This document shows positions 29,316 to 64,000 of a stretch of 64,000 nt of DNA, piece by piece. Below the pieces are notes generated by a model. It had not been told where the DNA came from and made no database searches. It saw only the letters and a program-made list of their open reading frames with translations. The position numbers and the translations under genes are program-made. This DNA is from Oligoflexales bacterium (lineage in GTDB: Bacteria > Myxococcota_A > UBA9042 > DTJE01). The stretch's first letter is position 1. Each line of letters begins with the position of its first letter. The stretch lies in contig DUVQ01000097.1 of the NCBI GenBank assembly GCA_012840965.1, positions 5,045-69,044 of the forward strand. Direction: 5' to 3'.

Positions 29316-29316
29316 A

Positions 29317-30894: not shown

Positions 30895-30938
30895 TGTTCT
30901 TGCCTATCGTCACTCGCTTTTACCCGGACAAGTCCTAG

Positions 30939-49082: not shown

Positions 49083-49130
49083 AGGGACAGGGTCAGGGAC
49101 AGGGCCAGGCGTAGGATCAGGGCAGGGACC
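49083..49130. repeat. (GGGRCA)n array
   Basis: gggacagggtcagggacagggccaggcgtaggatcagggcagggacc. Confidence 0.8.
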
Positions 49131-52100
49131 TTGCGAGGCGGAAGCCTAGGTTTGGCTGCCTGCCAATTGGGGTATTACCATGGCGGAAAGCTGACCTTAA
49201 CAGGCCAGCACCACTACTTAGATTGCCGCCACGATTAGCCCGCGAGCTGCCGGTGCTAGGCCCTACTGGATCAGAGCAACCTTGCTCACACATACTGTAG
49301 TAGGTGGTACTGTACCAGTCGTTCACCCACTCCGAAACATTGCCATGAACATCGTACAAACCCCAATGGTTTGGCAGCTTTTGTGCAACCGGTTGGCTTT
49401 TACTACCCGAGTTATAGCCGTACCAAGCAATGTCTGGAAGTCCAATTCCAAAAGGATTACCCGCGTCACATATTGGTTCCCCATTGTGGCCAACATTGCT
49501 GCCAATCCAGTACGCTGTTGTAGTTCCAGCTCGGGCGGCATATTCCCATTCTGCCTCGGTAGGCAAACGATAACCTGTGCACAAAAGACCAACAAAAGTT
49601 ACATTGCAGGAATAGTTGCCACCACCTGGAGTTCCCGAACAATTGGACAGCTGATAGCAAGGTTGAAAGCCTTCTTCAGTAGAAAGGGCGTTAGCATAAG
49701 CCACAGTATCAAACCAGTTGACCTGTTCCACAGGACAATCATCACCACAGGCGGTGTTGTAAGAAGGATTGTTGCTAAAAATGGCCTTCCATTCACCTTG
49801 AGTCACTTCAGTCTGTTTCATTAAAAAAGGACGTGTAATCGTGACTGGATGAACTGGCCCCTCATTTGCCCATCGGCATCCCTCATCACTAGGTGACCCC
49901 ATCTCAAAAGTACATGCCGGCAGCAAGCACCAGCCGTTGTTGCAAATGGTCGATGCTGTACACCCATCGACCGGTACACAGTTACCGCCAACCGGACGGT
50001 AGCCTTCGATACAGATGCACAAGGGCTGATTCAAAGCTGTGACTACACATGAACCATAACCACTGCAGGTGATACCAGAACAAGGATCTGTAGGGGAGAC
50101 GCAAGCGTGGCCATCCCAGTCGTACCCTTGGTTACAGACACACATGGCCTCATTGGTAGCGGTGATTAGACAGGAACTGTTGCTGCCGCAGTCGACACTT
50201 GAACATGGGTTGGTAGTGGCAGTGCAACCTTGGCCATCCCAATCGTACCCTTGGTTACAGATGCACAAGGCCTCGTTGGCAGCGGTGACCACACAAGAGC
50301 CTTGGTTGCTGCAGGTGACTTGGGCGCATGCATCTTCAATACAAGCCTGGCCCACTCGACGGTATCCTTGGTTACAGATGCACAGGGCCTCGTTGGCAGC
50401 GGTGACTACACAAGAACCTTGGTTGCTGCAGGTGACTCCGGCGCATGCATCTTCAATACAAGCTTGGCCCACTCGACGGTATCCTTGGTTACAGATGCAC
50501 AGGGCCTCGTTGGCGGAGGTGACCACACAAGAGCCTTGGTTGCTGCAGGTGACTTGGGCGCATGCATCTTCAATGCAAGCCTCGCCCACTCGACGGTATC
50601 CTTGGTTACAGATGCACAAGGCCTCGTTGGCGGCGGTGACCACACAAGAGCTATTGTTACCACAGTCGACATTTGAACACGCATTTGTAGCGGCTAAGCA
50701 ATCGTTTCCAACGTTATGGTAGCCTTGGTCACAGATACACAAGGGTTCACTGGTTCCTGTGACTACACAAGAGCCATTTTCACTGCAATCAATGTCTTCA
50801 CAGGGCGAGTTTGGCACTCCGCCTCCTCCTTCATCCCACATGCATGCAGGACCGTTAGAAAGATAGCCAGGCCGGCAAATGCATACGGGGGTATTGTCAT
50901 GAGCAATGGCGCAGACGCCTCCGCCTACACATGTGATCCCTTCACAGGGGTTTTCTTCCGGGGATTCCTGGCAAACATCTTCTTTCAGTGTAAATCCTGG
51001 GTCGCAGATGCAGATTGGCCCGACGGCACCAATGGCGCAACGTCCATGGGTGCCACAGTCGACATTAGTACATACATTTGTGGCGGCGACGCAATTGTTC
51101 TCAACAGCGCTGTAGCCCTCGTCACAGACACACAAGGCCTCATTTGAGGCGGTGACTATACAAGAACCCTTGTAACTACAGAAGACGTCTTCACAGGGTG
51201 AATCTGGTACTTCATCCTCCAGACATTGAGCTCCGTCAGAATGATGGCCAGGGCGGCAAAGGCAGACGGGGGTACTGTCATGCGCAACAGTGCAGACACC
51301 GTTGCCGGCACACATGACGTTTTTGCATGGATCGTCCACTGGGGACTCCTGGCAAAGGTCGTTTATTAGTGTAAATCCTGGGTCGCAGACGCAGATTGGT
51401 CCAACAGCGCCAAGTGCGCAACGTCCATGGGTGCCACAGTCGACATTAGCACACACATTGGTGGTGACAACACAGGTGTTGTCTTCTTGGTGGAAGCCTT
51501 CGTCACAAACACACAAGGCTTCGTTGGCTGCGGTAACTACGCAAGAGCCATTGTTACCGCAGTTGGCGCTCAAACACGGGTCTGCGATGCATTGGTCGCC
51601 GTCTCGCATGTATCCTTGGTTACAAACACACAGGGCTTCGTTGGCTGCGGTAACTACGCAAGAGCCATTGTTACCGCAGTTGGCGCTCAAACACGGGTCT
51701 GCGATGCATTGGTCGCCATCTCGCATGTATCCGGGGTTACAAACACACAAGGCTTTATTGGCGGCGGTAACTACACAGGAGCCATTGTTACCGCAGTTGG
51801 CACTCAAACACGGGTCTGCGATGCATTGGTCGCCATCTCGCATGTAGCCTTGGTCACAAACACACAAGGCTTTATTGGCGGCGGTAACCACGCAGGAACC
51901 AAAGCCGCTGCAATCGATGTTTGTACAGGGTGAGTCTGGTTCTTCCTCTGTGTCACCTTTCACGCACCTGTCACCGTCGGAATGATAGCCGGGACGGCAA
52001 AGGCAGACCGCGGTATTGTCGTGGGCAACCGCACAGACGCCATTGCCTTCACACACTACGCCTTCACAAGGGCTATCCACCAAGGTTTCCTGACAAGTAT

Positions 52101-52929
52101 CGCCATGCAGTGTAAATCCATCGTCACAGATACAGATAGGCCCCTCAGCGCCAAGCGCACAGCGCCCGTGGTCGCCGCAGTCGAGCCCCAAACATGGATT
52201 CGTCACGGCAACGCAATCCTTACCCTCCAGGTGGTAGCCTTCGTTACAAACACACAGCGGCTCGTTTGCGGTGGTCACTACACAAAAACCGTGGTCACCA
52301 CAGTCAACTTCAGAACATGGATTGGTCGTCACAACGCAATCCTTACCCTCCAGGTGGTAACCTTCGTTACAAACACACAGCGGCTCGTTTGCGGTGGTCA
52401 CTACACAAAAACCATTGTCACCACAGTCAACTTCTGCACATGGACTAGGCACGGCAACGCAACTGTTGCCATCGAGGTGGTATCCCTGGTCACAGATACA
52501 TAAGGCCTTGTTGCCAGCCGTCACAACGCAAGAGCCATAACCACCACAGGTGATACCTGCACAAGGCGAGCGTGGCACTTCATCTTCAACACAAGTGGCA
52601 CCGTCGGAGTGATATCCTGTGCGACAAAGACACACTGCGGTTTTGCCCTGGACAACAGCACAGACGCCATTGCCATCACATGTGATCTCCGCACAAGGGT
52701 CATCAACTGGGGATTTCTTGCAAACCTCGTCTTGCACAGTGTAACCAGGGTCACAGATGCAGATTGGACCTTCAGCCCCAACTGCACAACGCCCACGACT
52801 GCCGCAGTCAACACCAACGCAGTAATTCTCGAACTGCTCGTCATCAAAGCCAAAATCGAAAGAGCGGTCGTTATTGCTAACACAGGCGATGAAAAACAGC
52901 GTAACTAAAGGCAAAACTCTCTTCAACAT
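49117..52929 (-). CDS. giant lipoprotein: ~28 EGF-like Cys-rich modules plus C-terminal FGE/SUMF1-like domain (paralog 1)
   Basis: Start at MLKRVLPLVTLFFIAC|VSNN. Repeated CxxxDCGxHGxCxxxxxxxxCxCDxGYxxxxxxC modules. C-terminus RLPTEAEWEYAARAGTTTAYWIG...GLYDVHGNVSEWVNDWY...RGG...GFRLARSLP matches the FGE-sulfatase domain. Confidence 0.75.
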   Translation of the reverse strand: MLKRVLPLVTLFFIACVSNNDRSFDFGFDDEQFENYCVGVDCGSRGRCAVGAEGPICICDPGYTVQDEVCKKSPVDDPCAEITCDGNGVCAVVQGKTAVCLCRTGYHSDGATCVEDEVPRSPCAGITCGGYGSCVVTAGNKALCICDQGYHLDGNSCVAVPSPCAEVDCGDNGFCVVTTANEPLCVCNEGYHLEGKDCVVTTNPCSEVDCGDHGFCVVTTANEPLCVCNEGYHLEGKDCVAVTNPCLGLDCGDHGRCALGAEGPICICDDGFTLHGDTCQETLVDSPCEGVVCEGNGVCAVAHDNTAVCLCRPGYHSDGDRCVKGDTEEEPDSPCTNIDCSGFGSCVVTAANKALCVCDQGYMRDGDQCIADPCLSANCGNNGSCVVTAANKALCVCNPGYMRDGDQCIADPCLSANCGNNGSCVVTAANEALCVCNQGYMRDGDQCIADPCLSANCGNNGSCVVTAANEALCVCDEGFHQEDNTCVVTTNVCANVDCGTHGRCALGAVGPICVCDPGFTLINDLCQESPVDDPCKNVMCAGNGVCTVAHDSTPVCLCRPGHHSDGAQCLEDEVPDSPCEDVFCSYKGSCIVTASNEALCVCDEGYSAVENNCVAATNVCTNVDCGTHGRCAIGAVGPICICDPGFTLKEDVCQESPEENPCEGITCVGGGVCAIAHDNTPVCICRPGYLSNGPACMWDEGGGGVPNSPCEDIDCSENGSCVVTGTSEPLCICDQGYHNVGNDCLAATNACSNVDCGNNSSCVVTAANEALCICNQGYRRVGEACIEDACAQVTCSNQGSCVVTSANEALCICNQGYRRVGQACIEDACAGVTCSNQGSCVVTAANEALCICNQGYRRVGQACIEDACAQVTCSNQGSCVVTAANEALCICNQGYDWDGQGCTATTNPCSSVDCGSNSSCLITATNEAMCVCNQGYDWDGHACVSPTDPCSGITCSGYGSCVVTALNQPLCICIEGYRPVGGNCVPVDGCTASTICNNGWCLLPACTFEMGSPSDEGCRWANEGPVHPVTITRPFLMKQTEVTQGEWKAIFSNNPSYNTACGDDCPVEQVNWFDTVAYANALSTEEGFQPCYQLSNCSGTPGGGNYSCNVTFVGLLCTGYRLPTEAEWEYAARAGTTTAYWIGSNVGHNGEPICDAGNPFGIGLPDIAWYGYNSGSKSQPVAQKLPNHWGLYDVHGNVSEWVNDWYSTTYYSMCEQGCSDPVGPSTGSSRANRGGNLSSGAGLLRSAFRHGNTPIGRQPNLGFRLARSLP

Positions 52930-53033
52930 AGCAACCCTCCAGGCAACCGGCATCTATTCCAGAAACCACCGCCTCACAAACGAAAAATCAAGGGGTTAGC
53001 AGGTTCAGGCTAGCATCAGCATGGATCCACGTC

Positions 53034-53075
53034 AAGGGCAGGGCCGGGGAGAGGGATAGGAGCCGGGGACAGGAC
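53034..53075. repeat. (GGGRCA)n-related G-rich array
   Basis: gggcagggccggggagagggataggagccggggacagg. Confidence 0.6.
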
Positions 53076-53084
53076 CCCAAGGTA

Positions 53085-56000
53085 CTAGGGCAGCGACCTA
53101 GCTAGACGTAAGCCAATCATGTAGGCCGAGTAGGAAGGCGCAGCGTCGAGGCGTGCAGCTGATCGTAACTTGTCAGCATGGGCGATAAACCAGCCTCCAC
53201 GATAAACCCGCGTCGTACCCCCCTGAAATCCAATTGGATCTGTACAGCCCTGTGCACAGTAGTCGTAATAGGTGGCACTGTAAAAGTCATACACCCATTC
53301 AGCTACACTGCCGTGAACATCATACAAACCCCATTGGTTTGGAAGCTTTTGCCCAACTGGATGGCTTTCATTACCCGAGCTGTAGGCATACCAGGCAATC
53401 TCAGGTAGTCCCGTCCCCGAAGGATCTCCGTTGTTACACACTGGCAACCCATTGGACCCAATGTTACTCCCAATCCAATAAGCGGTCGTTGTTCCAGCCC
53501 TAGTGGCATGTTCCCACTCTGCCTCGGTGGGCAATCGATATCCATTACACCTAAGACCAGCAAAACTTGCTGACGAGCAATTAAAGCTAGCGGTACCTGG
53601 GGTACCATTACATCCATACAGGGTATAGCACTGATTAAAACCGTCTTCCAAGGAAAGCCTGTTCGCATAATCAACCGCAGCATACCAGTTGACATTCTCT
53701 ACAGGGCAGTCATCTCCACAAAGGTCGGCATGAGATGGATTGGTGCCATAAATCGCCTTCCATTCTCCTTGGGTCACCTCGGTCTGTTTCATGAAGAACG
53801 GACGTGTAATCGTGACTAGATGAACTGGCCCCTCGTTATTCTTTCGGCATCCCTCATTACTAGGAGACCCCATTTGAAAGGTGCACGCAGGGATCAAGCA
53901 CCAGCCGTTCGCACAAACACTCGGGGCTTCACACACAGGATCGTCCTCAACACAGTTGGTTCCATCTGGACGATAGCCTTGATTACAGACGCATAAGGCT
54001 TCATTCAAACCTGTAACCACACAAGAACCATGGCCGCCGCAGTTGATACCTGTACATGGGCTAGCAATACAATTGTCTCCATTGCGAAGGTATCCTGGGT
54101 TACAGACACACAAGGGGTTATTGTCGGCTGTGACTACGCAAGAGCTGTTGGTTCCGCAGTTGACACCTATACATGGGCTGGCAATACAATTTTCGCCATC
54201 GCGAAGGTATCCTGGGTCACATACACACAAGGGCTCATCGTCGGCAGTGGCCACGCAAGAGCTGTTGGTGCCGCAGTTGACACCTGCGCATGGATTAGGC
54301 ACAGGCTCGCAGGTGTTACCATTGCGGCTGAAGCCCTCGTTACAGACGCATAGAGGTTGATTGGAACCTGTGATTACACAGAAGCCATTGCCACCGCAGG
54401 CAACACCAGAACATACGTTAGGTTTGCATTCATTGTTTACGCGACGGAAGCCCTCGTTACATACACACCTGGGGTCAAAGTAACCATCGACCACACAGAA
54501 ACCATTAGCGCAGCTATAATCCATACATGGATTAGGGTGGCAATTTGGGCCATGGTTAAAGTACCCGTAGTCGCATACACACAAGCCTTCGTTGGCTGCG
54601 GTGACTACACAAGAACTATGGGTGCCGCAGTGGGTCAATCTACATGGGCTATCCAAACATCTATCGCCATCGCGATAGGAGCCCTCGTTACAGATACACA
54701 ACGCTTCGGCGGAATTAGTAACTACACAGGTACCCCTATTGCTGCAGGTGACATTTTTACACGGATTTTGGACACATTCATCGCCACTGCGAATGAAGCC
54801 TGGGTAGCAGATACACACGGGTTGATTGGAGACGTCGGTCACACAATAGCTATAGGTACCGCAGTCTTTGTTTGCACATCCAATTCTTTCGCAGTAATCG
54901 CCAAACCTATAGTAGCCATGGTCGCAGACACACACGTCTTGATTGTCAGCGGTGACCACACAAGAACCGTGTTCACTGCAGGTCTTTCCTGCACAAGGTG
55001 AGGGTGGCGCTACAACTTCCACGCATTTAGCACCGTCAGAGTAGTAACCAGGGCGGCAATGGCAGAAAGGGGTATTGTCATGGGCAAGGGCGCAGACGCC
55101 ATTACCTGCACATGTGACGTTTTCACAGGGGTCATTTAAAGGGGTGACTTGGCAAACACCATCTTGCAGTGTGTATCCTGGGTCGCAGATGCAGATATGA
55201 CCGGCGGCGCCAAGTGCGCAACTCCCATGCTCACCACAGTTGGCATTATCACATGGATTGGGCGTCAGAACGCAGTTGTCCCCAACGCTGTAGTAACCTT
55301 GGTCGCAGACACATAAGGCCTGCTTGCTGGCGGTGACCACACATGAACCTTTGAAGCCGCAGGTGATGCCTTCACAGGGCGAAACCTCCACCGTGTCTTT
55401 TACACAGACGGCACCGTCAGAATGATAGCCAGGACGGCAATGGCAGAAGGGGGTATTATCATGTGCGAGAGCACAGACTCCATTGCCCACACAAGTGACG
55501 TTTTCACAGGGGTCATTTACTGGTGTCACTTGGCAAACGCCATCTTGCAGCGTGTATCCAGGGTCGCAGATGCAGATCGGCCCGGCGGAGCCAAGTGCGC
55601 ACCGTCCATGTGCACCGCAGTTGGCGTTCTCACATACGTCTGTATCGGGAACACACTCGTTGTTTACCGGGTGGTAGCCTTGGTCACATACACATAAGGC
55701 TTGATTATCAGCGGTTACTACACAGGACCCTTTGTAACTGCAGGTAATGTTTTCACATGGTGAAACTGGCGTTGCGTCTTTGACACAGACGGCACCATCG
55801 GAATGATAGCCAGGGCGGCAAAGACAGACCGCGGTGTTGTTGTGGGCAACAGCACATGCCCCATTGCCTGCACATACAACGTTTTTACAGGGGTCGTCTA
55901 CTGGGGTTGCTTGGCAGATGCCGTCTTGCAGCGTGTATCCAGGGTCGCAGATGCAGATTGGCCCAACAGCGCCAAGTGCGCACCGTCCATGTTCACCGCA

Positions 56001-57227
56001 GTTGATATCTGCGCATGCATTCGTCGTGGCAACGCAGTTGTTGCCGTCGCGACGGTAGCCTTCGTGACAGATACATAATGCTTCTTTGGCAGCGGTGACT
56101 ACACAATAACCCTTGTTGCTGCAGGAGACGCCCGCACACGGATCCGCGATACAATCGTTATCGTCCTGAATGTAGCCTCGGTTACAGAGACACATGGCCT
56201 CATTTTCGGCGGTGACTATGCAAGAGCTGTTGTTACCACAGTTGGCATTGAAACACGGGTCTGCGATACACTCGTTGTCAACTTGCAGGTAGCCTTGGTC
56301 ACAGATACACAGCGGTTCGTTTTCGCCAGTGACAACACAAGAGCCAAAGCCACTGCAGGCGATGTCTTTACACGGCGATCCCGGTCCTTCACCACCTCCA
56401 TCTAACAGACATGTGGCACCGTCGGAATGATAGCCATGGCGACAGATGCAGACGGGGGTATTATCATGCGCAACGGCACAGACACCATTGCCAGCACATA
56501 CGATGTCTTTACAGGGGTCGTCAACGGTGGATTCTATGCAAACCCCGTCCTGCAGCGTGAATCCTTGGTCGCAGATGCAGATGGCCCCAACGGCGCCAAG
56601 TGCACAACGCCCGTGTGCGCCACAGTCGACCCCTGAACATGGATTGGTGGTCGCAACGCAGTTATCGTCCCCCTCCTGATGATAGCCTTGGTCACAGATA
56701 CAAACGGCCTGATTGTCTGCATTGACCAGACAAGACCCATGCCCTCCGCAGGTGACGCCAGCACATGGACCAGCAGTGGCAACGCAGTTATCGCCCCCCT
56801 CCTGATGGTAGCCTTCATCACAGATACAAACGGCCTCATTGTCTGCGTTGACCAGACAAGACCCATGCCCTCCGCAAGTCACGCCAGCACAGGGCGAGCG
56901 TGGCACATCATCTTCCACGCAATTGGTACCGTCCGCGTGATAGCCAATGCGGCAAAGACACACCGCGGTTTTACCCTGGGTAACAGCACAGACTCCATGG
57001 TTATCGCAGGTGATTCCTTCACACGGGTCATCAGTCGGGGACTCCTTGCAAAGACCATCTTGCAGGGTATATCCCTGATCACAGATGCAAAGCGGCCCCT
57101 CAGCGCCAACTGCACAGTGCCCATGGGCACCACAGTCAAAACCGACACAATAGTTCTCGAACTGACCGGTCCCGCCACCACATGCAACAAAAAGCACGGT
57201 AACCAAAGGCAAGGCTCTCTTAAACAT
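53085..57227 (-). CDS. giant Cys-rich repeat lipoprotein with C-terminal FGE/SUMF1-like domain (paralog 2)
   Basis: Start at MFKRALPLVTVLFVAC|GGG. About 1,380 aa. Same module types, including near-identical ~127-aa super-repeats. C-terminus RLPTEAEWEHATRAGTTTAYWIG...GFRLARSLP. Confidence 0.75.
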   Translation of the reverse strand: MFKRALPLVTVLFVACGGGTGQFENYCVGFDCGAHGHCAVGAEGPLCICDQGYTLQDGLCKESPTDDPCEGITCDNHGVCAVTQGKTAVCLCRIGYHADGTNCVEDDVPRSPCAGVTCGGHGSCLVNADNEAVCICDEGYHQEGGDNCVATAGPCAGVTCGGHGSCLVNADNQAVCICDQGYHQEGDDNCVATTNPCSGVDCGAHGRCALGAVGAICICDQGFTLQDGVCIESTVDDPCKDIVCAGNGVCAVAHDNTPVCICRHGYHSDGATCLLDGGGEGPGSPCKDIACSGFGSCVVTGENEPLCICDQGYLQVDNECIADPCFNANCGNNSSCIVTAENEAMCLCNRGYIQDDNDCIADPCAGVSCSNKGYCVVTAAKEALCICHEGYRRDGNNCVATTNACADINCGEHGRCALGAVGPICICDPGYTLQDGICQATPVDDPCKNVVCAGNGACAVAHNNTAVCLCRPGYHSDGAVCVKDATPVSPCENITCSYKGSCVVTADNQALCVCDQGYHPVNNECVPDTDVCENANCGAHGRCALGSAGPICICDPGYTLQDGVCQVTPVNDPCENVTCVGNGVCALAHDNTPFCHCRPGYHSDGAVCVKDTVEVSPCEGITCGFKGSCVVTASKQALCVCDQGYYSVGDNCVLTPNPCDNANCGEHGSCALGAAGHICICDPGYTLQDGVCQVTPLNDPCENVTCAGNGVCALAHDNTPFCHCRPGYYSDGAKCVEVVAPPSPCAGKTCSEHGSCVVTADNQDVCVCDHGYYRFGDYCERIGCANKDCGTYSYCVTDVSNQPVCICYPGFIRSGDECVQNPCKNVTCSNRGTCVVTNSAEALCICNEGSYRDGDRCLDSPCRLTHCGTHSSCVVTAANEGLCVCDYGYFNHGPNCHPNPCMDYSCANGFCVVDGYFDPRCVCNEGFRRVNNECKPNVCSGVACGGNGFCVITGSNQPLCVCNEGFSRNGNTCEPVPNPCAGVNCGTNSSCVATADDEPLCVCDPGYLRDGENCIASPCIGVNCGTNSSCVVTADNNPLCVCNPGYLRNGDNCIASPCTGINCGGHGSCVVTGLNEALCVCNQGYRPDGTNCVEDDPVCEAPSVCANGWCLIPACTFQMGSPSNEGCRKNNEGPVHLVTITRPFFMKQTEVTQGEWKAIYGTNPSHADLCGDDCPVENVNWYAAVDYANRLSLEDGFNQCYTLYGCNGTPGTASFNCSSASFAGLRCNGYRLPTEAEWEHATRAGTTTAYWIGSNIGSNGLPVCNNGDPSGTGLPEIAWYAYSSGNESHPVGQKLPNQWGLYDVHGSVAEWVYDFYSATYYDYCAQGCTDPIGFQGGTTRVYRGGWFIAHADKLRSAARLDAAPSYSAYMIGLRLARSLP

Positions 57228-57485
57228 ACAACCCCTCCAAGTCATCGACACGCTAGTCACGTGGAAAAACCACAAAGACCAAACCTATTGCGACCCTAGT
57301 GCGCACGCTACTCCTGCCATAAATTCGTGTCAACAGAAAGATCTGACAAAAAAAACAGTGGCTTAAGTTGCCAAAGCCCGTGGTCGTTATTTACCCCCGC
57401 AATCGATAAACGGTCCCCAAACAATCTGGTGGTACGAGTACCGAGGAAGGATAAACAAAAGCGGAGGGGGTACGGTGGGGGCTGA

Positions 57486-60400
57486 CTAGGGCAGCGACCT
57501 TGCCAGTCTAAAGCCCACCCAGGATAAACCATTTGTGGGAATAGCAGAGTTACGGTAGGCTGATCGGCACTCCCCAGCGTTGTTCAAGTATGAGCCACCA
57601 CGATAAGCCCGATTATTGCCTGTACTAGGTCCCAACGGATCAGTACAACCGTTCTTACAACTGTTGTAATGGTCATCAAACCGGTCATTAACCCATTCAC
57701 TCACATTACCGTGAACATCGTACAGACCCCATTGATTTGGTAACCGATCCTTAACTTTTTGAGTCTTGCCAGCTGAGTTATATGAATACCAACCAGCCTC
57801 TGGTAGCCCAATTCCATCGGAGCTATTACCACATACCGGTTGCCCACTGTACCCAACATTGCTTCCCATCCAATACGCGGTGGTAGTTCCAGCTCTAGTC
57901 GCATATTCCCATTCTGCCTCGGTTGGTAAACGATAACCCGTACAGCCAGGACCAAGATAAGTTACATCGCAGGTATATTCGCCAGAACCTGGAGTACCTG
58001 TGCAAGACCCTATGCTGTAACATTTGGACAGGCCCTCTGTTGCGGAGAGTTTATCCGCATAACGAACCGCGTCATACCAATTGACATTGTCCACAGGGCA
58101 CATAGCACAATAGGGTTGGCGCATCGACGGATTGGTGCCTGGAAAGACCGCCTCCCACTCATACTGGGTTACTTCAGTTCGCTTCATCCAGAACGGACGA
58201 GTAATCGTGACTGGATGAATTGGTCCCTCGTTATTAGACCGGCATCCCTCATCGTTAGGAGACCCCATTTGAAAGGTACACGCTGGGATCAAACACCAGT
58301 TGTCGGTGCAAGTACTTGAAGTCACGCATGCATCGTCCAATACACAGCTAGCACCAACGGGGCGGTAGCCTTTGTTACATACACACATGGGTTTAAGTGA
58401 GCCAGTGACTACGCAAGAACCTTTACCACCGCAGGTAACGTTATTACACGGATTAGGCTGACAAAGCGTACCTTGGCTAATGTACCCCTGGTTGCACACA
58501 CATAAGGCCTCATTCGAAGGTGTGACTACACAATGGCCTTGATCACTGCAGGTAACTCCAAAGCAGGCATCTGCGACGCATTGATTGCCACTGTCAAGAC
58601 GGTAGCCCTCGTCACAGACGCAGAGAGCTTGATTGGAAGCGTCGACTACGCAAGAACCATGTTCGGAGCAGGTAACTCCTGAACATACATCTGGGACGCA
58701 CTCATTGCCATTGCCAGGACGGTAGCCCACGTCACAGATACATAAGGCTTGATAGGCAGAGGTGACTATACAAGCACCATTCCCAGCGCAAGAAACTCCA
58801 ACGCATGGATTTGCGACACAGGAACTACCATTGTGGAGGTACCCTTCATTACAGACACATAACGCTTGGTTCTTGGATGTGACAACGCAATTGGCATTTG
58901 CGCCGCAATTGGCGGTTGCACATGGATTCTGTATGGGAAGGCAATCGTTCCCAGTGCTGTAATAGCCTTCGTCACAAACACACAGGGGGTCATTGTCGCC
59001 GGTGGGAACGCAAGAACCGTTGCCTCCGCAGTCGATGCCCGCGCATGGTGAATCCGGCGCCTCATCTTGCACGCACTCGTCGCCGTCAGAATGATAGCCA
59101 GGTCGGCACAGGCAGACAGGGGTATTGTCATGAGCAATCATGCAAACGCCGTCGCCTTCACATTCGACACCATCACAAGGGTCATTTACTGGGGCCACCT
59201 TGCAAACGCCACTTTGCACCGTGTATCCAGGGTCGCACACGCAGATGTGCCCCCCAACTCCAAGTGCACAACGTCCATGCTCGCCACAATTGACTCCCAC
59301 ACATGCATTTGGCGTAGGGATGCAATTGTTGCCTTCTGCATGGTAGCCTTGGTCACATATACATAAGGGTTGGTTGCCACCGGTTACTATACATGAGCCT
59401 TTAAAACTGCAGGTAACGTTTTTGCATGGTGAATCTGGTACCACGTCTTGCACACACTCGTCACCGTCAGAATGATAGCCAGGGCGACAAAGGCAGACGA
59501 CGGTATCATCATGCGCGATGGCACAGACTCCATTGCCAGCGCATATGATCCCTTCACATGGGTCATCTACTGGGGCCACCTTGCAAATTCCATCTTGAAC
59601 TGTGTATCCCGGGTCACACACGCAGATGTGTCCGCCAGAGCCAAGGGCACAACGCCCATGCTCACCGCAATCGACCCCAAAACATGCATTGGCGGCGACA
59701 ACGCAATCGCTTCCAACGCTGTGGTAGCCTTGGTCACATACACACAAAGGTTCATAGGCGCCGGTGATCAAGCACGAGCCATTGTAACTACAGTCAATGT
59801 TTTCGCATGGTGTACCTAGCACTCCCGCTTTCAGACACTGGGCACCGTTAGATTGATAGCCAGGGCGGCACAGGCAGACAGGGGTATTGTCATGCGCGAC
59901 GGCACAGACCCCACCGCCAGCGCACAACACCCCTTCACATGGGTCATTCTGCGGGGGCACCTGGCAAACGCCACCCAGCGATGTATATCCTGGGTCACAG
60001 ACGCAGATTGGCCCATCAGCGCCAACGGCGCAACGTCCGTGCTCGCCACAGTTGGCCTCCGTACACACATTGGTGGCGGCAATGCAATTGTGGCCATCTC
60101 TAAGGAATCCATGGTCGCAGACACACAAGGCTTTATTGTCGCCGGTTACTACACAATGGCCGTTACCACCGCAGGTGATATCTGAACAAGGGTCAGCGAT
60201 GCACTGGTTGCCCTCTCGAAGAAAGCCTGCTTTACATACACACAAGGGTTGGTTGGCAGCAGCGACCACGCAAGAGCCATTGTCAGGGCAGTTAACATCC
60301 GAACATGGGTCAACAAGGCACTCGTTGCCAACTCGAAGATAGCCCTGGTCACAGACGCACAAGGCCTCATTGTCAGCGGTCACCACACAGTGGCTATCGT

Positions 60401-61379
60401 CACCGCAACTAACTCCCAAACATGGGTCAATGACGCACTCGTCGCCATCTCGAAGATACCCTTGGTCGCAGACACACAAGGCCTCATTGGCAGCAGTCAC
60501 CACACAAGAGCCAAAACCACTGCATATGATGCCTGTACAGGGCGAATCTGGCACCACATCTACCACGCACTTGGCCCCATCCGCGTGATAGCCAGGGCGA
60601 CAGTGGCAGACGGCGGTATTATCGTGTGCAACGACACAGGTACCGTTGCCAGCACATACCACTCCTTCACAAGGGTTGTTCACTATGTGTTCCTTGCAAA
60701 CGCCTCCTTGCAGGGTAAATCCTTGGTCACAGACGCAGATTGGCCCCTCAGCTCCAATGGCACAGCGTCCATGGTCACCACAGTTGACTCCTGCACATGC
60801 GTTGGTATTGGCAACGCAATTGTCGCCTTCCAGATGGTAGCCATCGTGGCAGAAACATGATGCTTCATTGGTAGCGCTAACAACACAAAAACCGTTGTCG
60901 CCACAATCGAATCCTACACAAGGACCAGTGGTGGCAACGCAGTTGTTGCCGTCAAGATGGTAGCCTTGGTCACAGACACATAACGGCTTGTTTTCCGAGG
61001 TGACTACGCAAGAGCCGTGACCACCACAGGTGATGCCTTTGCATGGTGTGTATGGCCCTACATCTTCCACGCATTTGGTCCCTTCCGCATGATAGCCGGT
61101 GCGGCAAAGACAGATGGCGCTGTTACCCTGTGTAACAGCACAGACGCCATTACTTCCACATGAGATCCCGTTACAAGGGTCGTCAACCGGGGATTTATTA
61201 CAAACACCGTCTTTCAGGGTGTAACCTGGGTCACAGATGCAGATTGGACCTTTGGAACCGACTGCACAGTGGCCATTGTTGCCACAGTTGACGGACTCAC
61301 AGTAATTCTCGAATTCACCGCCATTGCCACCACAGGCGACGAAGAGCAGCGCGACCAAAGGCAAAGTTCTTTTAAACAT
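57486..61379 (-). CDS. giant Cys-rich repeat lipoprotein with C-terminal FGE/SUMF1-like domain (paralog 3)
   Basis: MFKRTLPLVALLFVAC|GGNGG. 1,297 aa. C-terminus RLPTEAEWEYATRAGTTTAYWMG...GFRLARSLP. Confidence 0.75.
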   Translation of the reverse strand: MFKRTLPLVALLFVACGGNGGEFENYCESVNCGNNGHCAVGSKGPICICDPGYTLKDGVCNKSPVDDPCNGISCGSNGVCAVTQGNSAICLCRTGYHAEGTKCVEDVGPYTPCKGITCGGHGSCVVTSENKPLCVCDQGYHLDGNNCVATTGPCVGFDCGDNGFCVVSATNEASCFCHDGYHLEGDNCVANTNACAGVNCGDHGRCAIGAEGPICVCDQGFTLQGGVCKEHIVNNPCEGVVCAGNGTCVVAHDNTAVCHCRPGYHADGAKCVVDVVPDSPCTGIICSGFGSCVVTAANEALCVCDQGYLRDGDECVIDPCLGVSCGDDSHCVVTADNEALCVCDQGYLRVGNECLVDPCSDVNCPDNGSCVVAAANQPLCVCKAGFLREGNQCIADPCSDITCGGNGHCVVTGDNKALCVCDHGFLRDGHNCIAATNVCTEANCGEHGRCAVGADGPICVCDPGYTSLGGVCQVPPQNDPCEGVLCAGGGVCAVAHDNTPVCLCRPGYQSNGAQCLKAGVLGTPCENIDCSYNGSCLITGAYEPLCVCDQGYHSVGSDCVVAANACFGVDCGEHGRCALGSGGHICVCDPGYTVQDGICKVAPVDDPCEGIICAGNGVCAIAHDDTVVCLCRPGYHSDGDECVQDVVPDSPCKNVTCSFKGSCIVTGGNQPLCICDQGYHAEGNNCIPTPNACVGVNCGEHGRCALGVGGHICVCDPGYTVQSGVCKVAPVNDPCDGVECEGDGVCMIAHDNTPVCLCRPGYHSDGDECVQDEAPDSPCAGIDCGGNGSCVPTGDNDPLCVCDEGYYSTGNDCLPIQNPCATANCGANANCVVTSKNQALCVCNEGYLHNGSSCVANPCVGVSCAGNGACIVTSAYQALCICDVGYRPGNGNECVPDVCSGVTCSEHGSCVVDASNQALCVCDEGYRLDSGNQCVADACFGVTCSDQGHCVVTPSNEALCVCNQGYISQGTLCQPNPCNNVTCGGKGSCVVTGSLKPMCVCNKGYRPVGASCVLDDACVTSSTCTDNWCLIPACTFQMGSPNDEGCRSNNEGPIHPVTITRPFWMKRTEVTQYEWEAVFPGTNPSMRQPYCAMCPVDNVNWYDAVRYADKLSATEGLSKCYSIGSCTGTPGSGEYTCDVTYLGPGCTGYRLPTEAEWEYATRAGTTTAYWMGSNVGYSGQPVCGNSSDGIGLPEAGWYSYNSAGKTQKVKDRLPNQWGLYDVHGNVSEWVNDRFDDHYNSCKNGCTDPLGPSTGNNRAYRGGSYLNNAGECRSAYRNSAIPTNGLSWVGFRLARSLP

Positions 61380-61417
61380 GTAAACCCTCCATGCAGTTAG
61401 GCATAGGGCAAAAGCAA

Positions 61418-64000
61418 CTAGGGTAGTGACCTCACAACGCGAAATCCGTTCAAGGGCGAGCGGGTGGCAGGTGCGCTAGAGCCACGGCTAGCCGACCGAA
61501 CCTTGCCAGCTAAACTACTAAAATCGCCTCCACGCTTAACCTTGTTCTTGAGTGTACCTTGCGGAGGTCCCACTGGATCTGTGCAATCCCCTTCAGAGCA
61601 TTGTTGGTAGTAGTTCAACTTGTACCAGTCGTATACCCATTCTCCAATATTGCCATAAAGATCGTACAAACCCCATGGATTCGGTAGCTTTGCCTCACTT
61701 ACCTGGGTCGTATTGCCTGAGTTATAACCGTACCAAGCAATCTCCGATAGTCCGATTCCTGAAGGGTCACCTGCATTACAAACTTCTGCTCCATTGTACC
61801 CAATGTTGCCTCCTATCCAGTATGCAGTCGTAGTTCCAGCACGAGCGGCATATTCCCACTCTGCCTCGGTTGGCAAACGATATCCTGTGCAACTAAGACC
61901 CTGAAAAATTACCGATGTACAGGTATAGCCGTAATTACCTGGAGTACCTGTGCATCCAGTTGTTATGTAACAGAGGGGTAATCCTTCCTTAGTAGAACGT
62001 GTATTCGCATAGGCAACCGCGTCATACCAACTGACATTATCCACAGGGCAGTCTTCACCACAGGTTTGGTTTTGGGATGGATTGTTGTTAAAGACACTTT
62101 CCCAATCTCCCTGAGTCACCTCACGTTGTCCCATGATAAAAGGACGTGTAATCGTAACAAGATGCGCCGGACCTTCATCGCCATCCCGACATGCTTCAGT
62201 GCTGGGAGAGCCCATCACGAAGGTACATGGTGGGATCAGGCACCAGCCGTTACGGCAAGCACTTAAAGTTGAACACTTTTCAACCCTTACACAGGTGTTG
62301 TCCACACGATGATAGCCTTGGTTACAGACACACAAGGGTTGATTGTCACCGGTGAGTACACAAGAACCATTACCACCGCAGTTGTCACCTAAGCACGGAT
62401 TTGCAACGCAAGTACCATCCACGCGCTGGTAGCCTGGGTGACACACACATAGTGGTTGATTGTCACCGGTGAGAGTGCAAGAGCCGTAATCATCACAGGT
62501 GACCCCTGAGCATGGATCGGCAACGCAAGTACCACCCACGCGCTGGTAACCTGGGTCACAGATACATACGGGTTGATTGTTGTGGGCCAGTACACAAGTA
62601 CCGTTACCGCAGTCGATGGCTGAACATGCATCTGCGACGCAGGCGTTGTCATCACTACGGTAGCCATGCCCACACACACATATGGCATCAAACTCATCAG
62701 TGACTATGCAAGAACCTGCATCAGGGCTCGATCCATCACACAGGGCATCTTCACATGGACTGGGATTGCAAAATTGGCGGTTGCTTAGGTATCCAGGTTC
62801 ACAGACACATAAGGCCTCTTGATCAGCGGTGACCACACATAGTTGGTTGTTACCGCAGTAGACTTTGGTACACGGATTATCGGTAGAAACGCATGTGCCG
62901 CCCGAAAGGTGGTTGCCTTGGTCGCAGATGCACAAGGGTTCGTTGTCGCTGGTGACAACGCAAGAGCCTCTGTTATTGCAGGTGACGCCCGCACAAGGTG
63001 AATCCGGCACCAAATCTTGCACACACTGGGTGCCATCAGAGTGATAGCCTGGGCGGCATAGGCAGACGGCGGTATTGTCATTAGCAATCATGCAAACGCC
63101 GTCGCCAGCACATTCGACACCATCACAAGGGTCATTTACTGGGGCTACCTCGCACACCCCCTGTTGCACTGTGTATCCAGGGTCGCAGACGCAGATTGTT
63201 CCGTTGGCACCAAGCGCACAACGCCCATGCTCACCACAGTTGACCACCGCACATGGATTAGGGGTGGCGACGCAATTGTTGCCCACCCGGTGGTAGCCTT
63301 GGTCGCAGACGCATAATGGCTGATTGGCACCGGTGACCACGCAGGAACCTTTGTAACTGCAGGTGATGTCCTTACATGGCGAATCTGGAGCCACATCTTG
63401 CCTACATTCGGCACCGTCAGAAAGATAGCCAGGGCGGCACAGGCAGGTAGGTGTGTTGTCATGCGCAATCATGCAAGCGCCATTGCCAGCACATTCGACA
63501 CCATTGCATGGGTCATATACTGGAGCTGCCTTGCACACCCCTTGTTGCACTGTGTATCCTTCGTCGCAGACGCAGAACGGCCCCGCAGCGCCAAGCGCAC
63601 AACGCCCATTGTTGCCGCAGTTGACATTCGTGCATGCATCAGTGCCGGCAACGCAGTCGTTTTGAACTCGATAGAAGCCTTGGTCGCATATACACAAGGC
63701 CTGATTGGCGCCGGTGACCACGCAAGAACCGTTGTCGTTGCAGTCAACGCCATCGCATGGTGAATCCACCGGCTCCAATTCATCATCTTTCAGACACCTG
63801 TCACCATCCGAATGATAGCCAGGGCGGCAGATGCAGACAGGGGTGTTATCGTGCGCGACAGCGCAGACTCCGTTGCCAGCACATATGACATTTTCACAGG
63901 GGTCATCTACTTGGGATTCTTGGCAAACCCCTTGTTGCAGTGTAAATCCAGGGTCACAGATGCAGATTGGCCCCGCTGCGCCAACGCCACAATGTCCATG
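61418..64000 (-). CDS. giant Cys-rich repeat protein with C-terminal FGE/SUMF1-like domain (paralog 4; N-terminus beyond window end)
   Basis: The frame stays open upstream of the TTG at 63778 (…VCICRPGYHSDGDRCLKDDELEPVDSPC…), so the gene continues past 64000. C-terminus RLPTEAEWEYAARAGTTTAYWIG...GFRVVRSLP. Confidence 0.7.
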   Translation of the reverse strand, partial: HGHCGVGAAGPICICDPGFTLQQGVCQESQVDDPCENVICAGNGVCAVAHDNTPVCICRPGYHSDGDRCLKDDELEPVDSPCDGVDCNDNGSCVVTGANQALCICDQGFYRVQNDCVAGTDACTNVNCGNNGRCALGAAGPFCVCDEGYTVQQGVCKAAPVYDPCNGVECAGNGACMIAHDNTPTCLCRPGYLSDGAECRQDVAPDSPCKDITCSYKGSCVVTGANQPLCVCDQGYHRVGNNCVATPNPCAVVNCGEHGRCALGANGTICVCDPGYTVQQGVCEVAPVNDPCDGVECAGDGVCMIANDNTAVCLCRPGYHSDGTQCVQDLVPDSPCAGVTCNNRGSCVVTSDNEPLCICDQGNHLSGGTCVSTDNPCTKVYCGNNQLCVVTADQEALCVCEPGYLSNRQFCNPSPCEDALCDGSSPDAGSCIVTDEFDAICVCGHGYRSDDNACVADACSAIDCGNGTCVLAHNNQPVCICDPGYQRVGGTCVADPCSGVTCDDYGSCTLTGDNQPLCVCHPGYQRVDGTCVANPCLGDNCGGNGSCVLTGDNQPLCVCNQGYHRVDNTCVRVEKCSTLSACRNGWCLIPPCTFVMGSPSTEACRDGDEGPAHLVTITRPFIMGQREVTQGDWESVFNNNPSQNQTCGEDCPVDNVSWYDAVAYANTRSTKEGLPLCYITTGCTGTPGNYGYTCTSVIFQGLSCTGYRLPTEAEWEYAARAGTTTAYWIGGNIGYNGAEVCNAGDPSGIGLSEIAWYGYNSGNTTQVSEAKLPNPWGLYDLYGNIGEWVYDWYKLNYYQQCSEGDCTDPVGPPQGTLKNKVKRGGDFSSLAGKVRSASRGSSAPATRSPLNGFRVVRSLP

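What the first reader, a model, noticed from the sequence alone, without database searches (positions are those of the whole stretch)
49117..64000. Head-to-tail array of four giant paralogous lipoproteins: EGF-like Cys-rich module arrays fused to a C-terminal FGE/SUMF1-like domain
About 15 kb of one strand is taken up by four consecutive genes (38-210 bp spacers; the fourth is truncated by the window edge). Each encodes a lipobox signal (LPLV..FVAC|GG), then 25-30 tandem 38-40-aa modules of the form CxxVxCGxxGxCxxxxxxxxCxCxxGYxxxGxxC (EGF-like or Myxococcus-type disulfide repeats), then a single C-terminal FGE-sulfatase-type domain. The combination of such a long EGF-like array with a terminal FGE/C-type-lectin-fold domain, amplified into a tandem family, does not correspond to any characterised system I can name. 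It looks like a surface adhesin or lectin family, or a diversifiable surface layer. Shared module families and ~127-aa near-identical super-repeats within paralog 2 imply ongoing duplication or gene conversion.
Basis: partly seen in the sequence, partly recalled or inferred. Interest (0 to 1): 0.8.

Follow-up and report, generated by a model that had tools for sequence, protein, structure and literature searches.

The report
Five giant stalk-and-head surface lipoproteins
An uncultured myxobacterium from anaerobic digesters carries five back-to-back genes for very long, disulfide-rich, lipid-anchored proteins that most likely hold a lectin-like binding domain far out from the cell; this is an unusual new version of a familiar kind of bacterial adhesin or receptor, not an enzyme and not a retroelement-diversified system.

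Summary
Window 49117-64000 (minus strand) holds three complete genes and one truncated gene. Each has a lipobox signal, then 23-26 six-cysteine EGF-like modules, then one C-terminal FGE-sulfatase domain (Pfam E 1e-38 to 1e-44). Near-identical contigs show the array has five genes, between truD and a helicase, in a 3.2 Mb uncultured Myxococcota genome.

The head domain lacks the FGE catalytic cysteine pair. Its closest solved relative, by sequence and by predicted fold, is TvpA, the Treponema variable protein diversified by a diversity-generating retroelement (DGR). The last ~40 residues follow the TvpA-type pattern of fixed scaffold residues alternating with hypervariable positions, and they differ among all five paralogs.

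No DGR acts here as far as could be tested. I found no reverse transcriptase or template repeat nearby. The paralog 3' ends cannot share one template. The heads are identical across four assemblies.

Stalk length differs between assemblies by whole modules, although assembly collapse is not excluded. There are no gene-conversion tracts between paralogs.

Best reading: a family of lipid-anchored stalk-and-head adhesins or receptors with five hard-wired binding specificities. It is a new variant of a known kind, with moderate interest.

The parts
49117..52929 (-). P1: complete gene, 1270 aa. Lipobox, 23 EGF-like modules, FGE-type head. Other assemblies have 24 or 25 modules.
53085..57227 (-). 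P2: complete gene, 1380 aa. Lipobox, 26 EGF-like modules, FGE-type head. Other assemblies have 28 modules.
57486..61379 (-). P3: complete gene, 1297 aa. Lipobox, 24 EGF-like modules, FGE-type head. The exact protein is recorded in 39 blocks of the contig collection; the 23 contigs read include two of 3.2 Mb.
61418..64000 (-). P4: C-terminal 860 aa of a 1308-aa gene cut by the window edge. The full gene and a fifth paralog, P5 (1295 aa), lie beyond the edge in L008-L011.
61332..61379 (-). P3 signal peptide with lipobox (MFKRTLPLVALLFVAC). The equivalents are 57180-57227 in P2 and 52882-52929 in P1.
58344..61301 (-). P3 EGF-like stalk, residues 27-1012, ordered ABCC-ABCCCC-ABC-ABC-ABC-CCCCC. The P2 stalk is 53952-57149, the P1 stalk 49978-52821, and the visible P4 stalk 62291-64000.
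57489..58343 (-). P3 head: FGE-subtype C-type-lectin-fold domain of 285 aa. The P2 head is 53088-53951, the P1 head 49120-49977, the P4 head 61421-62290.
57489..57605 (-). P3 stretch equivalent to the DGR variable region (VR): the last 39 codons, RGG-x5-AG-xx-RSA-x-R-x4-P-x7-GFRLARSLP. The P2 equivalent is 53088-53204, P1 49120-49236, P4 61421-61537. This is the putative ligand-binding surface and is specific to each paralog.
   Evidence: TvpA VR defined in PMC6328139
51497..51901 (-). 117-nt tandem repeat, 3.5 copies, 93% matches (one EGF module per unit) in P1. This is where one or two modules are gained or lost between assemblies.
50245..50651 (-). Second 117-nt tandem repeat in P1, 3.5 copies, 93% matches.
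56653..56905 (-). 126-nt tandem repeat in P2, 2 copies, 90% matches. Other assemblies carry two more modules here.
55030..56125 (-). 381-nt (127-aa, A-B-C triad) super-repeat in P2, 2.9 copies, 76% matches. The same period occurs at 59042-60050 in P3 and 62908-63735 in P4.

Best explanation
This is a tandem family of five paralogous lipid-anchored 'stalk-and-head' binding proteins (adhesins or receptors).

Proposed steps, each marked shown or inferred:
1. Each precursor has a type-II (lipoprotein) signal. Cys16 is lipidated and anchors the N-terminus in a membrane, probably the outer membrane since residue +2 is Gly or Val. The motif is shown; the lipidation and location are inferred.
2. The 23-28 EGF-like modules each form three disulfides in the oxidising periplasm and fold into a thin, protease-resistant stalk. 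If extended, it would reach tens of nanometres (about 60-80 nm at about 2.5-3 nm per EGF domain, from my general knowledge). That is too long to stand upright in a periplasm, so it probably projects from the cell surface. This step is inferred.
3. [quoted passage not shown] It therefore acts as a ligand-binding head, like the Treponema variable protein TvpA. The fold and the missing residues are shown; binding is inferred.
4. The binding surface is the last ~40 residues. There, invariant scaffold residues (RGG, R, R, P, GFR) alternate with about 20 positions that differ in every paralog. The array therefore encodes five hard-wired specificities made by old gene duplication and ordinary substitution, not by a retroelement. 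The pattern is shown; the specificities are inferred.
5. Stalk length is adjusted by in-frame gain or loss of near-identical modules (shown between assemblies, with an assembly caveat).

The ligand is unknown. Surfaces of other cells, or polymers in the digester community, are the likeliest targets.
For: Architecture:
- Lipobox at Cys16 in all five paralogs, with a conserved RBS before each start.
- 121 modules, all with 6 Cys at EGF spacing. EGF families score above their Pfam cut-offs.
- The AF2 model of the last two modules plus the head has pLDDT 92, and each module shows two beta-hairpins.

Head:
- PF03781 at E 1e-38 to 1e-44.
- The best solved-structure match by sequence is TvpA 2Y3C, E 1.6e-29. 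By fold it is also TvpA, Foldseek E 2e-22, TM 0.76, ahead of PvdO and the true FGEs.
- The FGE Cys pair is absent in all five paralogs. None of the 72 aligned sequences (the four window heads plus 68 head-domain homologs) has both Cys.
- TvpA is reported to have no FGE activity and to be a binding protein whose variable region (VR) is its last 45 residues (PMC5758913, PMC6328139).
- The VR-equivalent stretch shows scaffold positions at 0.5 bits or less alternating with positions at 3.1-3.8 bits of entropy family-wide. These are the same positions that differ among the paralogs.

Rates of change:
- Mean paralog identity is 61% in the stalk, 64% in the head scaffold and 47% in the VR-equivalent.
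- Between strains, dN/dS is 0.11 for truD, 0.19-0.27 for the stalk, 0.34-0.38 for the head scaffold and 0.99 for the P5 VR-equivalent.

Stalk length: assemblies differ by exactly +1 or +2 modules in P1 and +2 in P2, with no other amino-acid change in those two proteins.

Context of relatives:
- The same head is fused to subtilisin-type proteases, VWA domains and other Cys-rich repeats, as expected for a portable extracellular binding module.
- Surface lipoproteins with a C-terminal exposed C-type-lectin VR are a known design, for example Legionella LdtA (PMC5758913).
Against: - Nothing shows that the proteins reach the cell surface, that they are lipidated, or that they bind anything.
- No ligand can be named.
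- The six-module stalk model was low confidence (pLDDT 62), so rod-like geometry is assumed, not shown.
- The dN/dS value of about 1 rests on only 23 substitutions in 46 codons of one paralog. It could reflect relaxed constraint or imported sequence, because dS is also raised in that head.
- PvdO-type proteins also lack the FGE cysteines yet take part in catalysis. Loss of the Cys pair alone therefore does not prove a non-enzymatic role.
- The module-number differences could be repeat collapse in short-read assemblies. The extra units differ from their neighbours by only 1-3 nt per 117 nt in P1.
Confidence: 0.58

Rival explanations
1. The five genes are targets of a diversity-generating retroelement (DGR) located elsewhere in the genome. 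In that case the C-terminal ~40 residues would be rewritten by mutagenic retrohoming, giving a truly diversifiable surface family.
For: - The head is most similar to the DGR variable protein TvpA and carries the same pattern of scaffold and hypervariable positions.
- DGRs can act on tandem arrays of up to eight targets and on targets more than 100 kb away (PMC5758913).
- I could not scan the whole genome. The one attempt failed.
Against: - No reverse transcriptase or Avd among the window ORFs scanned against Pfam; several ORFs of 150-225 aa were not scanned. None in the record annotation of the 2 kb (L008) or 8.6 kb (L006) upstream of the array.
- No second copy of any gene's 3' end in the window.
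- 81 of 117 nucleotide columns differ among the five 3' ends. This includes 34 of 39 third codon positions and synonymous changes in 9 of 14 invariant codons, so one shared template would need A at 69% of its positions.
- P5, P4 and P3, heads included, are identical or differ by one stalk residue in four assemblies from different samples. The last 60 residues of P1 and P2 are identical too.
- Where a more distant strain differs, synonymous changes accompany the replacements.
- The genes next to the close head homologs examined are not DGR genes: Pfam scan for the two genes downstream in L012, record annotation for L013, L015, L016.
Confidence: 0.05
2. The C-terminal domain is an enzyme: an FGE-family oxidase, or a PvdO/EgtB-like catalyst working on a periplasmic or extracellular substrate. 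The EGF array would then be only a tether.
For: - There is a strong FGE-sulfatase domain match.
- NCBI names relatives 'formylglycine-generating enzyme family protein' or 'SUMF1/EgtB/PvdO family nonheme iron enzyme'.
- PvdO is the second-best structural match.
Against: - The copper-binding Cys pair of FGE is absent in all five paralogs and in all 72 aligned sequences.
- There is no DinB-type domain as in EgtB.
- Scores against the PvdO, EgtB and SenA equivalog models are 21-96 bits, against cut-offs of 360-500.
- The region that forms the FGE active site is the least conserved part of the protein among the paralogs. That is the opposite of what an active site shows.
Confidence: 0.07
3. The proteins are structural parts of the cell envelope that face the periplasm, analogous to the FGE-fold lipoproteins PorK/GldK/GldJ of the type IX secretion and gliding machinery. 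They would act as a scaffold or tether rather than as outward-facing receptors.
For: - PorK, GldK and GldJ are lipoproteins with the same fold. They appear among the sequence and structure matches.
- tolQ, tolR and tonB-like genes lie 6-9 kb away.
Against: - Scores against the GldK and GldJ models are 25-80 bits, against cut-offs of 350-458.
- The PorK structural match is much weaker than TvpA (TM 0.37-0.45).
- No T9SS or gliding genes are adjacent.
- A structural partner interface would be conserved, but here the putative interface differs in every paralog.
- A 24-28-module stalk is hard to fit in a periplasm (inference).
Confidence: 0.1
4. The family is a self or kin recognition system like Myxococcus TraA. 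The variable heads would bind identical heads, or a cognate partner, on sibling cells rather than foreign ligands. The paralog set and stalk length would then define social compatibility.
For: - The organism is in the same phylum.
- The logic matches TraA: a variable domain, cysteine-rich repeats and a lipid-type surface anchor (PMC13184517).
- The head is polymorphic between strains, and its VR-equivalent has dN/dS of about 1.
- The organism has at least one protein with a MYXO-CTERM-like tail and a Cys-rich stalk in the same window.
Against: - There is no homology to TraA parts: no PA14-type domain, no TIGR04201 repeats, no MYXO-CTERM on these genes.
- No traB-like partner gene is present.
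- Four assemblies from different samples share identical heads. That is low polymorphism for a kin-discrimination locus.
Confidence: 0.15

Closest known systems
TvpA, Treponema denticola DGR variable protein (PDB 2Y3C)
   Same: It is the best match to the head by sequence (E 1.6e-29) and by predicted fold (E 2e-22, TM 0.76, 30% identity). [quoted passage not shown] It has no FGE activity, and its variable binding region is at the extreme C-terminus (PMC5758913, PMC6328139). The RGG...R...P...GFR scaffold is the same.
   Different: TvpA is a single-domain protein of about 330 aa diversified by a retroelement. Here the head sits on a 23-28-module EGF stalk, no retroelement or template repeat was found, and diversity is carried by five fixed paralogs.
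LdtA, Legionella pneumophila DGR surface lipoprotein
   Same: [quoted passage not shown] This is the topology proposed here.
   Different: Its head is a different C-type-lectin subclass (DUF1566/CLec2). It is DGR-driven, has no long stalk and is not an array.
Periscope proteins and fibrillar adhesins (SasG/Aap, Sgo_0707, Rib family)
   Same: These are single-chain stalks of tandem repeats that project a binding domain. Repeat number varies between strains (PMC8201768, PMC9704523, PMC8286594).
   Different: The known examples are mostly Gram-positive, wall-anchored at the C-terminus, with the head at the N-terminus. Their stalks are SHIRT, G5-E or Rib domains. The text of the two adhesin surveys I searched mentions neither EGF nor FGE-sulfatase. 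Most modules here are only 70-76% identical at the DNA level.
TraA, Myxococcus xanthus kin-recognition receptor
   Same: Same phylum. It also combines a variable binding domain, a cysteine-rich repeat stalk and a lipid-type surface anchor (PMC13184517).
   Different: The polarity is reversed: in TraA the head is N-terminal and the MYXO-CTERM anchor C-terminal. The head fold and repeat family are different, and no TraB partner is present here.
Formylglycine-generating enzyme (SUMF1/FGE)
   Same: Same Pfam family and fold.
   Different: The catalytic copper-binding cysteine pair is missing, and the active-site region is hypervariable.
Eukaryotic C-type-lectin plus EGF adhesion receptors (selectins, thrombomodulin/CD93 group), from my own knowledge
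   Same: They share the design logic: a membrane anchor, an EGF-containing stalk and a distal C-type-lectin-fold head.
   Different: This is convergent only. The lectin subclass differs, the EGF array here is far longer and not calcium-binding, and the anchor is a lipid rather than a transmembrane helix.

Membership tests
Pfam PF03781 FGE-sulfatase domain family | HMM score above the gathering threshold | tested here: met
   132-152 bits against a cut-off of 23.3, covering profile positions 3-255 of 255, in all four proteins.
Formylglycine-generating enzymes (SUMF1/FGE, catalytic) | Pair of copper-binding catalytic cysteines (human C336/C341, the LCHxSYC motif) | tested here: not met
   The aligned positions are N/C (P3), S/L (P1), I/K (P2), S/K (P4) and H/S (P5). 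None of the 72 aligned sequences (the four window heads plus 68 homologs) has both Cys.
Formylglycine-generating enzymes (SUMF1/FGE, catalytic) | [quoted passage not shown] | tested here: met
   The model has pLDDT 92. Foldseek gives probability 1.0 to TvpA, PvdO and many FGE structures.
EGF-like domain | Pfam EGF-family scores above gathering, and six cysteines with EGF spacing | tested here: met
   PF00008 at 58-134 bits against 21.5, and several other EGF families above their cut-offs. 121 of 121 modules have 6 Cys; 87 have spacing 4-5-9-1-10.
EGF-like domain | 1-3, 2-4, 5-6 disulfide connectivity | not testable with these tools
   This needs mass spectrometry or a solved structure.
Calcium-binding EGF (cbEGF) | C-x-[DN]-x4-[FY]-x-C consensus | tested here: not met
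   0 of 121 modules match.
Myxococcus cysteine-rich repeat (TIGR04201 Myxo_disulf_rpt) | NCBIfam HMM match | tested here: not met
   This model did not appear among the NCBIfam hits at E <= 0.01 for any of the four proteins.
Bacterial lipoprotein (signal peptidase II substrate) | Lipobox [LIVMF..]-x-[AGS]-C after a basic n-region and a hydrophobic h-region | tested here: met
   All five paralogs match, with Cys16 and two K/R in the first seven residues. The PROSITE-type rule was written from memory. Lipidation itself was not tested.
DGR variable (target) protein | C-terminal C-type-lectin-fold variable-region scaffold | tested here: met
   TvpA is the top match, and invariant and hypervariable positions alternate.
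DGR variable (target) protein | A template repeat that differs from the variable region only at adenines | tested here: not met
   No second copy exists in the window. A shared template is excluded, because 69% of columns vary, including third codon positions. The rest of the genome could not be searched.
DGR variable (target) protein | Reverse transcriptase, with or without Avd, nearby | tested here: not met
   No RVT or Avd hit in the window ORFs scanned. None in the record annotation of the 2 kb (L008) or 8.6 kb (L006) upstream of the array. A remote element is not excluded.
DGR variable (target) protein | Variation between isolates confined to the variable region | tested here: not met
   P3 and P5 are identical in L008-L011, P4 differs by one stalk residue, and the last 60 residues of P1 and P2 are identical. 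The differences from L006 are spread over the head and include synonymous sites.
Periscope proteins | Repeat-number variation between strains in a tandem-repeat stalk | tested here: inconclusive
   P1 has 23, 24 or 25 modules and P2 has 26 or 28 in otherwise identical genes. However, the short forms come from k141 short-read assemblies, and the extra units differ by only 1-9 nt.
Periscope proteins | Rigid, rod-like stalk | not testable with these tools
   The six-module AF2 model has pLDDT 62.
TraA-type receptors | PA14-like variable domain, MYXO-CTERM tag and a TraB partner | tested here: not met
   There are no such Pfam or NCBIfam hits. The proteins end in RSLP, and no partner gene is present.
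PorK/GldK and GldJ (T9SS and gliding lipoproteins) | NCBIfam equivalog score above cut-off | tested here: not met
   25-80 bits against cut-offs of 350-458.
TIGR02171 Fibrobacter paralogous lipoprotein family; PvdO (NF051459) | NCBIfam score above cut-off | tested here: not met
   69-89 bits against 544, and 77-96 bits against 500. These are local matches to the shared FGE domain only.

The most novel reading that the evidence does not exclude
The array is a hard-wired ('germline') counterpart of a DGR repertoire. The same C-type-lectin variable scaffold that retroelements hypermutate elsewhere has here been multiplied into five fixed specificities under diversifying selection. Each is mounted on a length-adjustable stalk of about 24-28 EGF modules. 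Together they form a bacterial, selectin-like system that an anaerobic, small-genome myxobacterium uses to recognise prey or partner cells in digester communities.
Probability: 0.3. Interest if true: 0.65.

Novelty: new variant of a known kind. Interest (0 to 1): 0.45.

Why it matters
If the reading is right, it has three consequences.

- It extends the stalk-and-head (fibrillar adhesin or Periscope) design to a diderm lipoprotein with an all-EGF stalk. The five genes hold 121 EGF-like modules, one of the densest bacterial uses of a fold usually thought of as eukaryotic.
- It shows that the TvpA-type variable lectin scaffold is also used without its retroelement. Paralogy and ordinary selection supply the diversity instead. 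This bears on how DGR targets arise and decay.
- It gives a handle on how an abundant but uncultured digester myxobacterium (3.2 Mb genome, seen in dozens of assemblies) touches its surroundings.

It does not open a long-standing question, and the organism is not in culture. The practical impact is therefore moderate.

Tried and rejected
1. DGR hypothesis. TvpA as top hit prompted this idea. I rejected it for the reasons listed under the rival explanations.

2. Genome-wide template-repeat search. I scanned metagenome contigs with the P3 3' end recoded so that every base could also be A. The design was flawed: poly-A runs satisfy the pattern. The test is uninformative.

3. GTDB representative genomes. 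These hold no close relative of P4. The best matches were 24-34% identical: four over the head only, and the weakest (25%) over the EGF part of the query.

4. L012 looked like a target-avd-RT arrangement (288, 134 and 362 aa). The 362-aa gene is in fact an LPG-synthase-type membrane protein.

5. Six-module stalk structure prediction. The alignment was shallow and pLDDT was 62. I did not use it for a fold search.

6. Exhaustive representative search for family size. The list was dominated by proteins with 3-6 tandem FGE domains. It could not count the EGF-stalk family, but it showed that the head is very common (10,017 hits at E <= 1e-30).

7. Promoter and terminator scan. Nothing exceeded the shuffled expectation.

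8. Gene conversion between paralogs. No tract of at least 85% identity over 80 nt was found.


Full report
WHAT IS IN THE WINDOW

Positions 49117-64000 are filled on the minus strand by four consecutive long ORFs. The last one stays open to the window edge. Each complete gene has an ATG preceded at 6-7 nt by GGAGGG. This sets the starts at 52929 (P1, 1270 aa), 57227 (P2, 1380 aa) and 61379 (P3, 1297 aa), with spacers of 155, 258 and 38 bp.

All genes begin M[FL]KRxLPL..F[VI]AC. Cys16 sits in a lipobox that passes a PROSITE-type rule.

Then come 23, 26 and 24 modules; 14 are visible in the truncated P4. Each module is 34-36 aa, joined by 4-13-residue linkers. All 121 modules of the full five-gene set have exactly six cysteines, mostly spaced C-x4-C-x5-C-x9-C-x-C-x10-C. 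None has the calcium-binding EGF consensus.

Three module types (A, B, C) are arranged in the same order in every paralog: ABCC, ABCCCC, ABC, ABC, ABC, CCCCC. The ABC triad is the 127-aa (381-nt) super-repeat.

Pfam places the modules in several EGF families above their cut-offs. It places the last ~285 residues in FGE-sulfatase, at 132-152 bits against a cut-off of 23.3.

BEYOND THE WINDOW

The exact P3 protein is recorded in 39 blocks of the contig collection; the 23 contigs read include two of 3.2 Mb. The window is 99.98% identical to one of the retrieved contigs (L008).

These loci show that the array has five genes. The order is truD, P5 (1295 aa), P4 (1308 aa), P3, P2, P1, a 234-aa signal-peptide protein, then a DinG-type helicase.

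The prolyl-tRNA synthetase encoded in the window is named by NCBI as from uncultured Myxococcota, including an 'ADurb' bin. I know that label as anaerobic-digester metagenomes. GTDB species representatives contain no close relative of these genes.

THE HEAD

The C-terminal domain's best solved relative by sequence is TvpA of Treponema denticola (2Y3C, E 1.6e-29). PvdO, CarF, true FGEs and PorK follow.

An AlphaFold model of the last two EGF modules plus the head is confident (pLDDT 92). Its best Foldseek match is again TvpA (E 2e-22, target TM 0.76), ahead of PvdO and the FGEs.

The two cysteines that bind copper in FGE align to non-cysteine residues in four paralogs, and to N/C in P3. None of the 72 aligned sequences (the four window heads plus 68 homologs) has both. 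Scores against the PvdO, EgtB, SenA, GldK, GldJ and TIGR02171 models are far below their cut-offs. The domain is therefore an FGE-fold protein but not an FGE.

TvpA is described as lacking FGE activity. It is a binding protein whose variable region (VR) is its last 45 residues, solvent-exposed on the lectin fold (PMC5758913, PMC6328139). In these paralogs the same stretch reads RGG-x5-A[GD]-xx-RSA-x-R-x4-P-x7-G[FL]R. The fixed residues are invariant and the x positions differ in every paralog. Across the 72 aligned sequences the fixed positions have 0.5 bits of entropy or less, and the x positions have 3.1-3.8 bits.

IS A DIVERSITY-GENERATING RETROELEMENT (DGR) AT WORK?

This was the most interesting possibility, so I tried to confirm it. 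The results argue against it.

- None of the window ORFs scanned is a reverse transcriptase or an Avd. They are housekeeping genes: Rnf complex, TolQR/TonB, ProRS, AdoHcyase, DNA polymerase III delta, DsbD-like.
- The record annotation of the sequence upstream of the array (2 kb in L008, 8.6 kb in L006) lists none either.
- No second copy of any gene's 3' end exists in the window.
- Across the last 39 codons, 81 of 117 nucleotide columns vary among the paralogs. This includes 34 of 39 third positions and synonymous changes in 9 of 14 invariant codons. A shared template would need adenine at 69% of its sites.
- P5 and P3 are identical, and P4 differs by one stalk residue, in four assemblies from different samples. 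The last 60 residues of P1 and P2 are identical too.
- Against a more distant strain (L006, 96-98.7% DNA identity) the differences are spread over head loops and include synonymous sites.
- The genes next to the close head homologs examined are not DGR genes. One that looked like target-avd-RT turned out to have an LPG-synthase-type gene downstream.

A remote DGR cannot be formally excluded. My genome-wide pattern scan was badly designed and returned only poly-A.

THE STALK AND ITS DYNAMICS

The five paralogs are collinear and roughly equidistant: 60-63% protein identity and about 72% DNA identity. No tract between paralogs reaches 85% identity over 80 nt. The gene duplications are therefore old, and recent gene conversion between paralogs is not seen.

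Recent events are confined to single modules. P1 has 117-nt units at 93% identity, and P2 has 126-nt units at 90%. Between assemblies, P1 has 23, 24 or 25 modules and P2 has 26 or 28, with no other amino-acid change in those two proteins.

The extra units differ from their neighbours by only 1-3 nt (P1) or 4-9 nt (P2). The short forms come from k141 short-read assemblies, while the longest forms are in the 3.2 Mb contigs. Collapse during assembly is therefore a real alternative to biological length variation. The window may under-represent the true module count.

RATES OF CHANGE

Mean paralog identity is 61% in the stalk, 64% in the head scaffold and 47% in the VR-equivalent.

Between strains, dN/dS is as follows:

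| Region | dN/dS |
|---|---|
| truD | 0.11 |
| Stalk | 0.19-0.27 |
| Head scaffold | 0.34-0.38 |
| VR-equivalent of P5 | 0.99 (16.5 non-synonymous, 6.5 synonymous changes) |

The counts are small. The direction fits a binding surface under relaxed or diversifying selection.

DISTRIBUTION

The head is very common. There are 4,754 or more hits at E <= 1e-20 in the word-indexed search, and 10,017 representatives at E <= 1e-30. Many are large proteins with 3-6 tandem copies.

EGF-plus-FGE fusions are rare. A few dozen clusters come from Myxococcota and from MAGs labelled Oligoflexales, often with 4-15 modules. Some carry an added subtilisin domain, or Dicty-type Cys-rich repeats in place of EGF.

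Relatives with the same lipobox and 'QFENYC' start occur as one gene, as two tandem genes, or as one flanked by two FGE-only genes. The five-gene array with 23-28 modules per gene is the largest form seen.

MECHANISM AND COMPARISON

The evidence best fits lipid-anchored stalk-and-head binding proteins. A disulfide-stabilised EGF stalk, tens of nanometres long if extended, would carry a TvpA-like lectin-fold head. Its binding surface is specific to each paralog.

Surface exposure, lipidation, rigidity of the stalk and the ligand are all inferred, not shown.

The closest known systems are these:
- TvpA has the same head but is driven by a DGR.
- Legionella LdtA has the same lipoprotein topology.
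- Periscope proteins and fibrillar adhesins follow the same stalk logic. The surveys I checked do not mention EGF or FGE-sulfatase.
- Myxococcus TraA follows the same logic in the same phylum, with unrelated parts and reversed polarity (PMC13184517).

The family fails the defining tests for FGE enzymes, DGR targets, TraA, and PorK/GldK/GldJ. It is best filed as a new variant of the surface adhesin or receptor kind.

VERDICT

The feature is real and correctly described in outline. Interest is moderate: the architecture is striking and uncharacterised, but it is assembled from known parts following a known logic, in an uncultured organism.

Noticed in passing
window 12679-18948 (-): A second giant Cys-rich protein of 2089 aa. 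It has a lipobox-like N-terminus, about 1000 Cys-poor residues, then about 130 Cys in the last ~900 residues (Pfam Dicty_CTDC). It ends ...SGGCSATQEGAASGLALVLLTLAILLWLRDRRRPLS, which looks like a MYXO-CTERM sorting tag. The topology is TraA-like, with polarity opposite to the EGF-FGE genes.
   Followed up: partly
window 43586-44776 (+): A fusion of a DsbD/CcdA-type membrane domain with thioredoxin lies 4.3 kb from the array. It may be relevant to folding proteins with 150-170 cysteines, or the position may be coincidence.
   Followed up: no
window 11100-11190, 31362-31625, 41996-42040, 48790-48830, 49080-49105: Runs of the hexamer CAGGGN (G3N3 repeats on the + strand, up to about 270 nt). One lies inside a TonB-like gene, where it would encode a proline-rich spacer on the minus strand. 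Two flank the P1 3' end, one directly after its stop codon. C-rich tracts on the coding strand also follow the stop codons of P2 and P3. Possible roles include G-quadruplex formation or Rho-dependent termination.
   Followed up: partly
window 47963-48667 (-): A 234-aa protein with a cleavable-looking signal peptide (…PAAALA|WTT) and no Pfam hit. It lies directly downstream of the array in all four retrieved loci (L008-L011), but not in more distant relatives. It may be a small outer-membrane protein.
   Followed up: partly
L008:5131-5997 versus L006:11836-12702 (P5 head): Between two strains, dS in the P5 head is 0.17, against 0.07 in the P5 N-terminus and in truD. This suggests the head was imported by recombination from a more divergent allele.
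   Followed up: partly
L016:7440-12223 (ENA ERZ27249281 k141_1027200): A different organism in the same sample as L009 carries two tandem, shorter EGF-FGE lipoproteins (829 and 740 aa). Their first 33 residues, covering the signal peptide and the start of the first EGF module, are identical, but the C-terminal binding stretches differ.
   Followed up: partly
P0183, P0186, P0190, P0194, P0198 (metagenomic proteins): Large proteins with 3-6 tandem FGE-type domains are common among the closest head relatives. One combines four EGF modules with five heads.
   Followed up: partly
window 25568-31478 (+) and 32217-35404: An Rnf-type complex operon (RnfC, RnfD, an FMN-binding subunit and an RnfB-like subunit) and two B12-binding radical SAM genes. 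These fit an anaerobic lifestyle.
   Followed up: no
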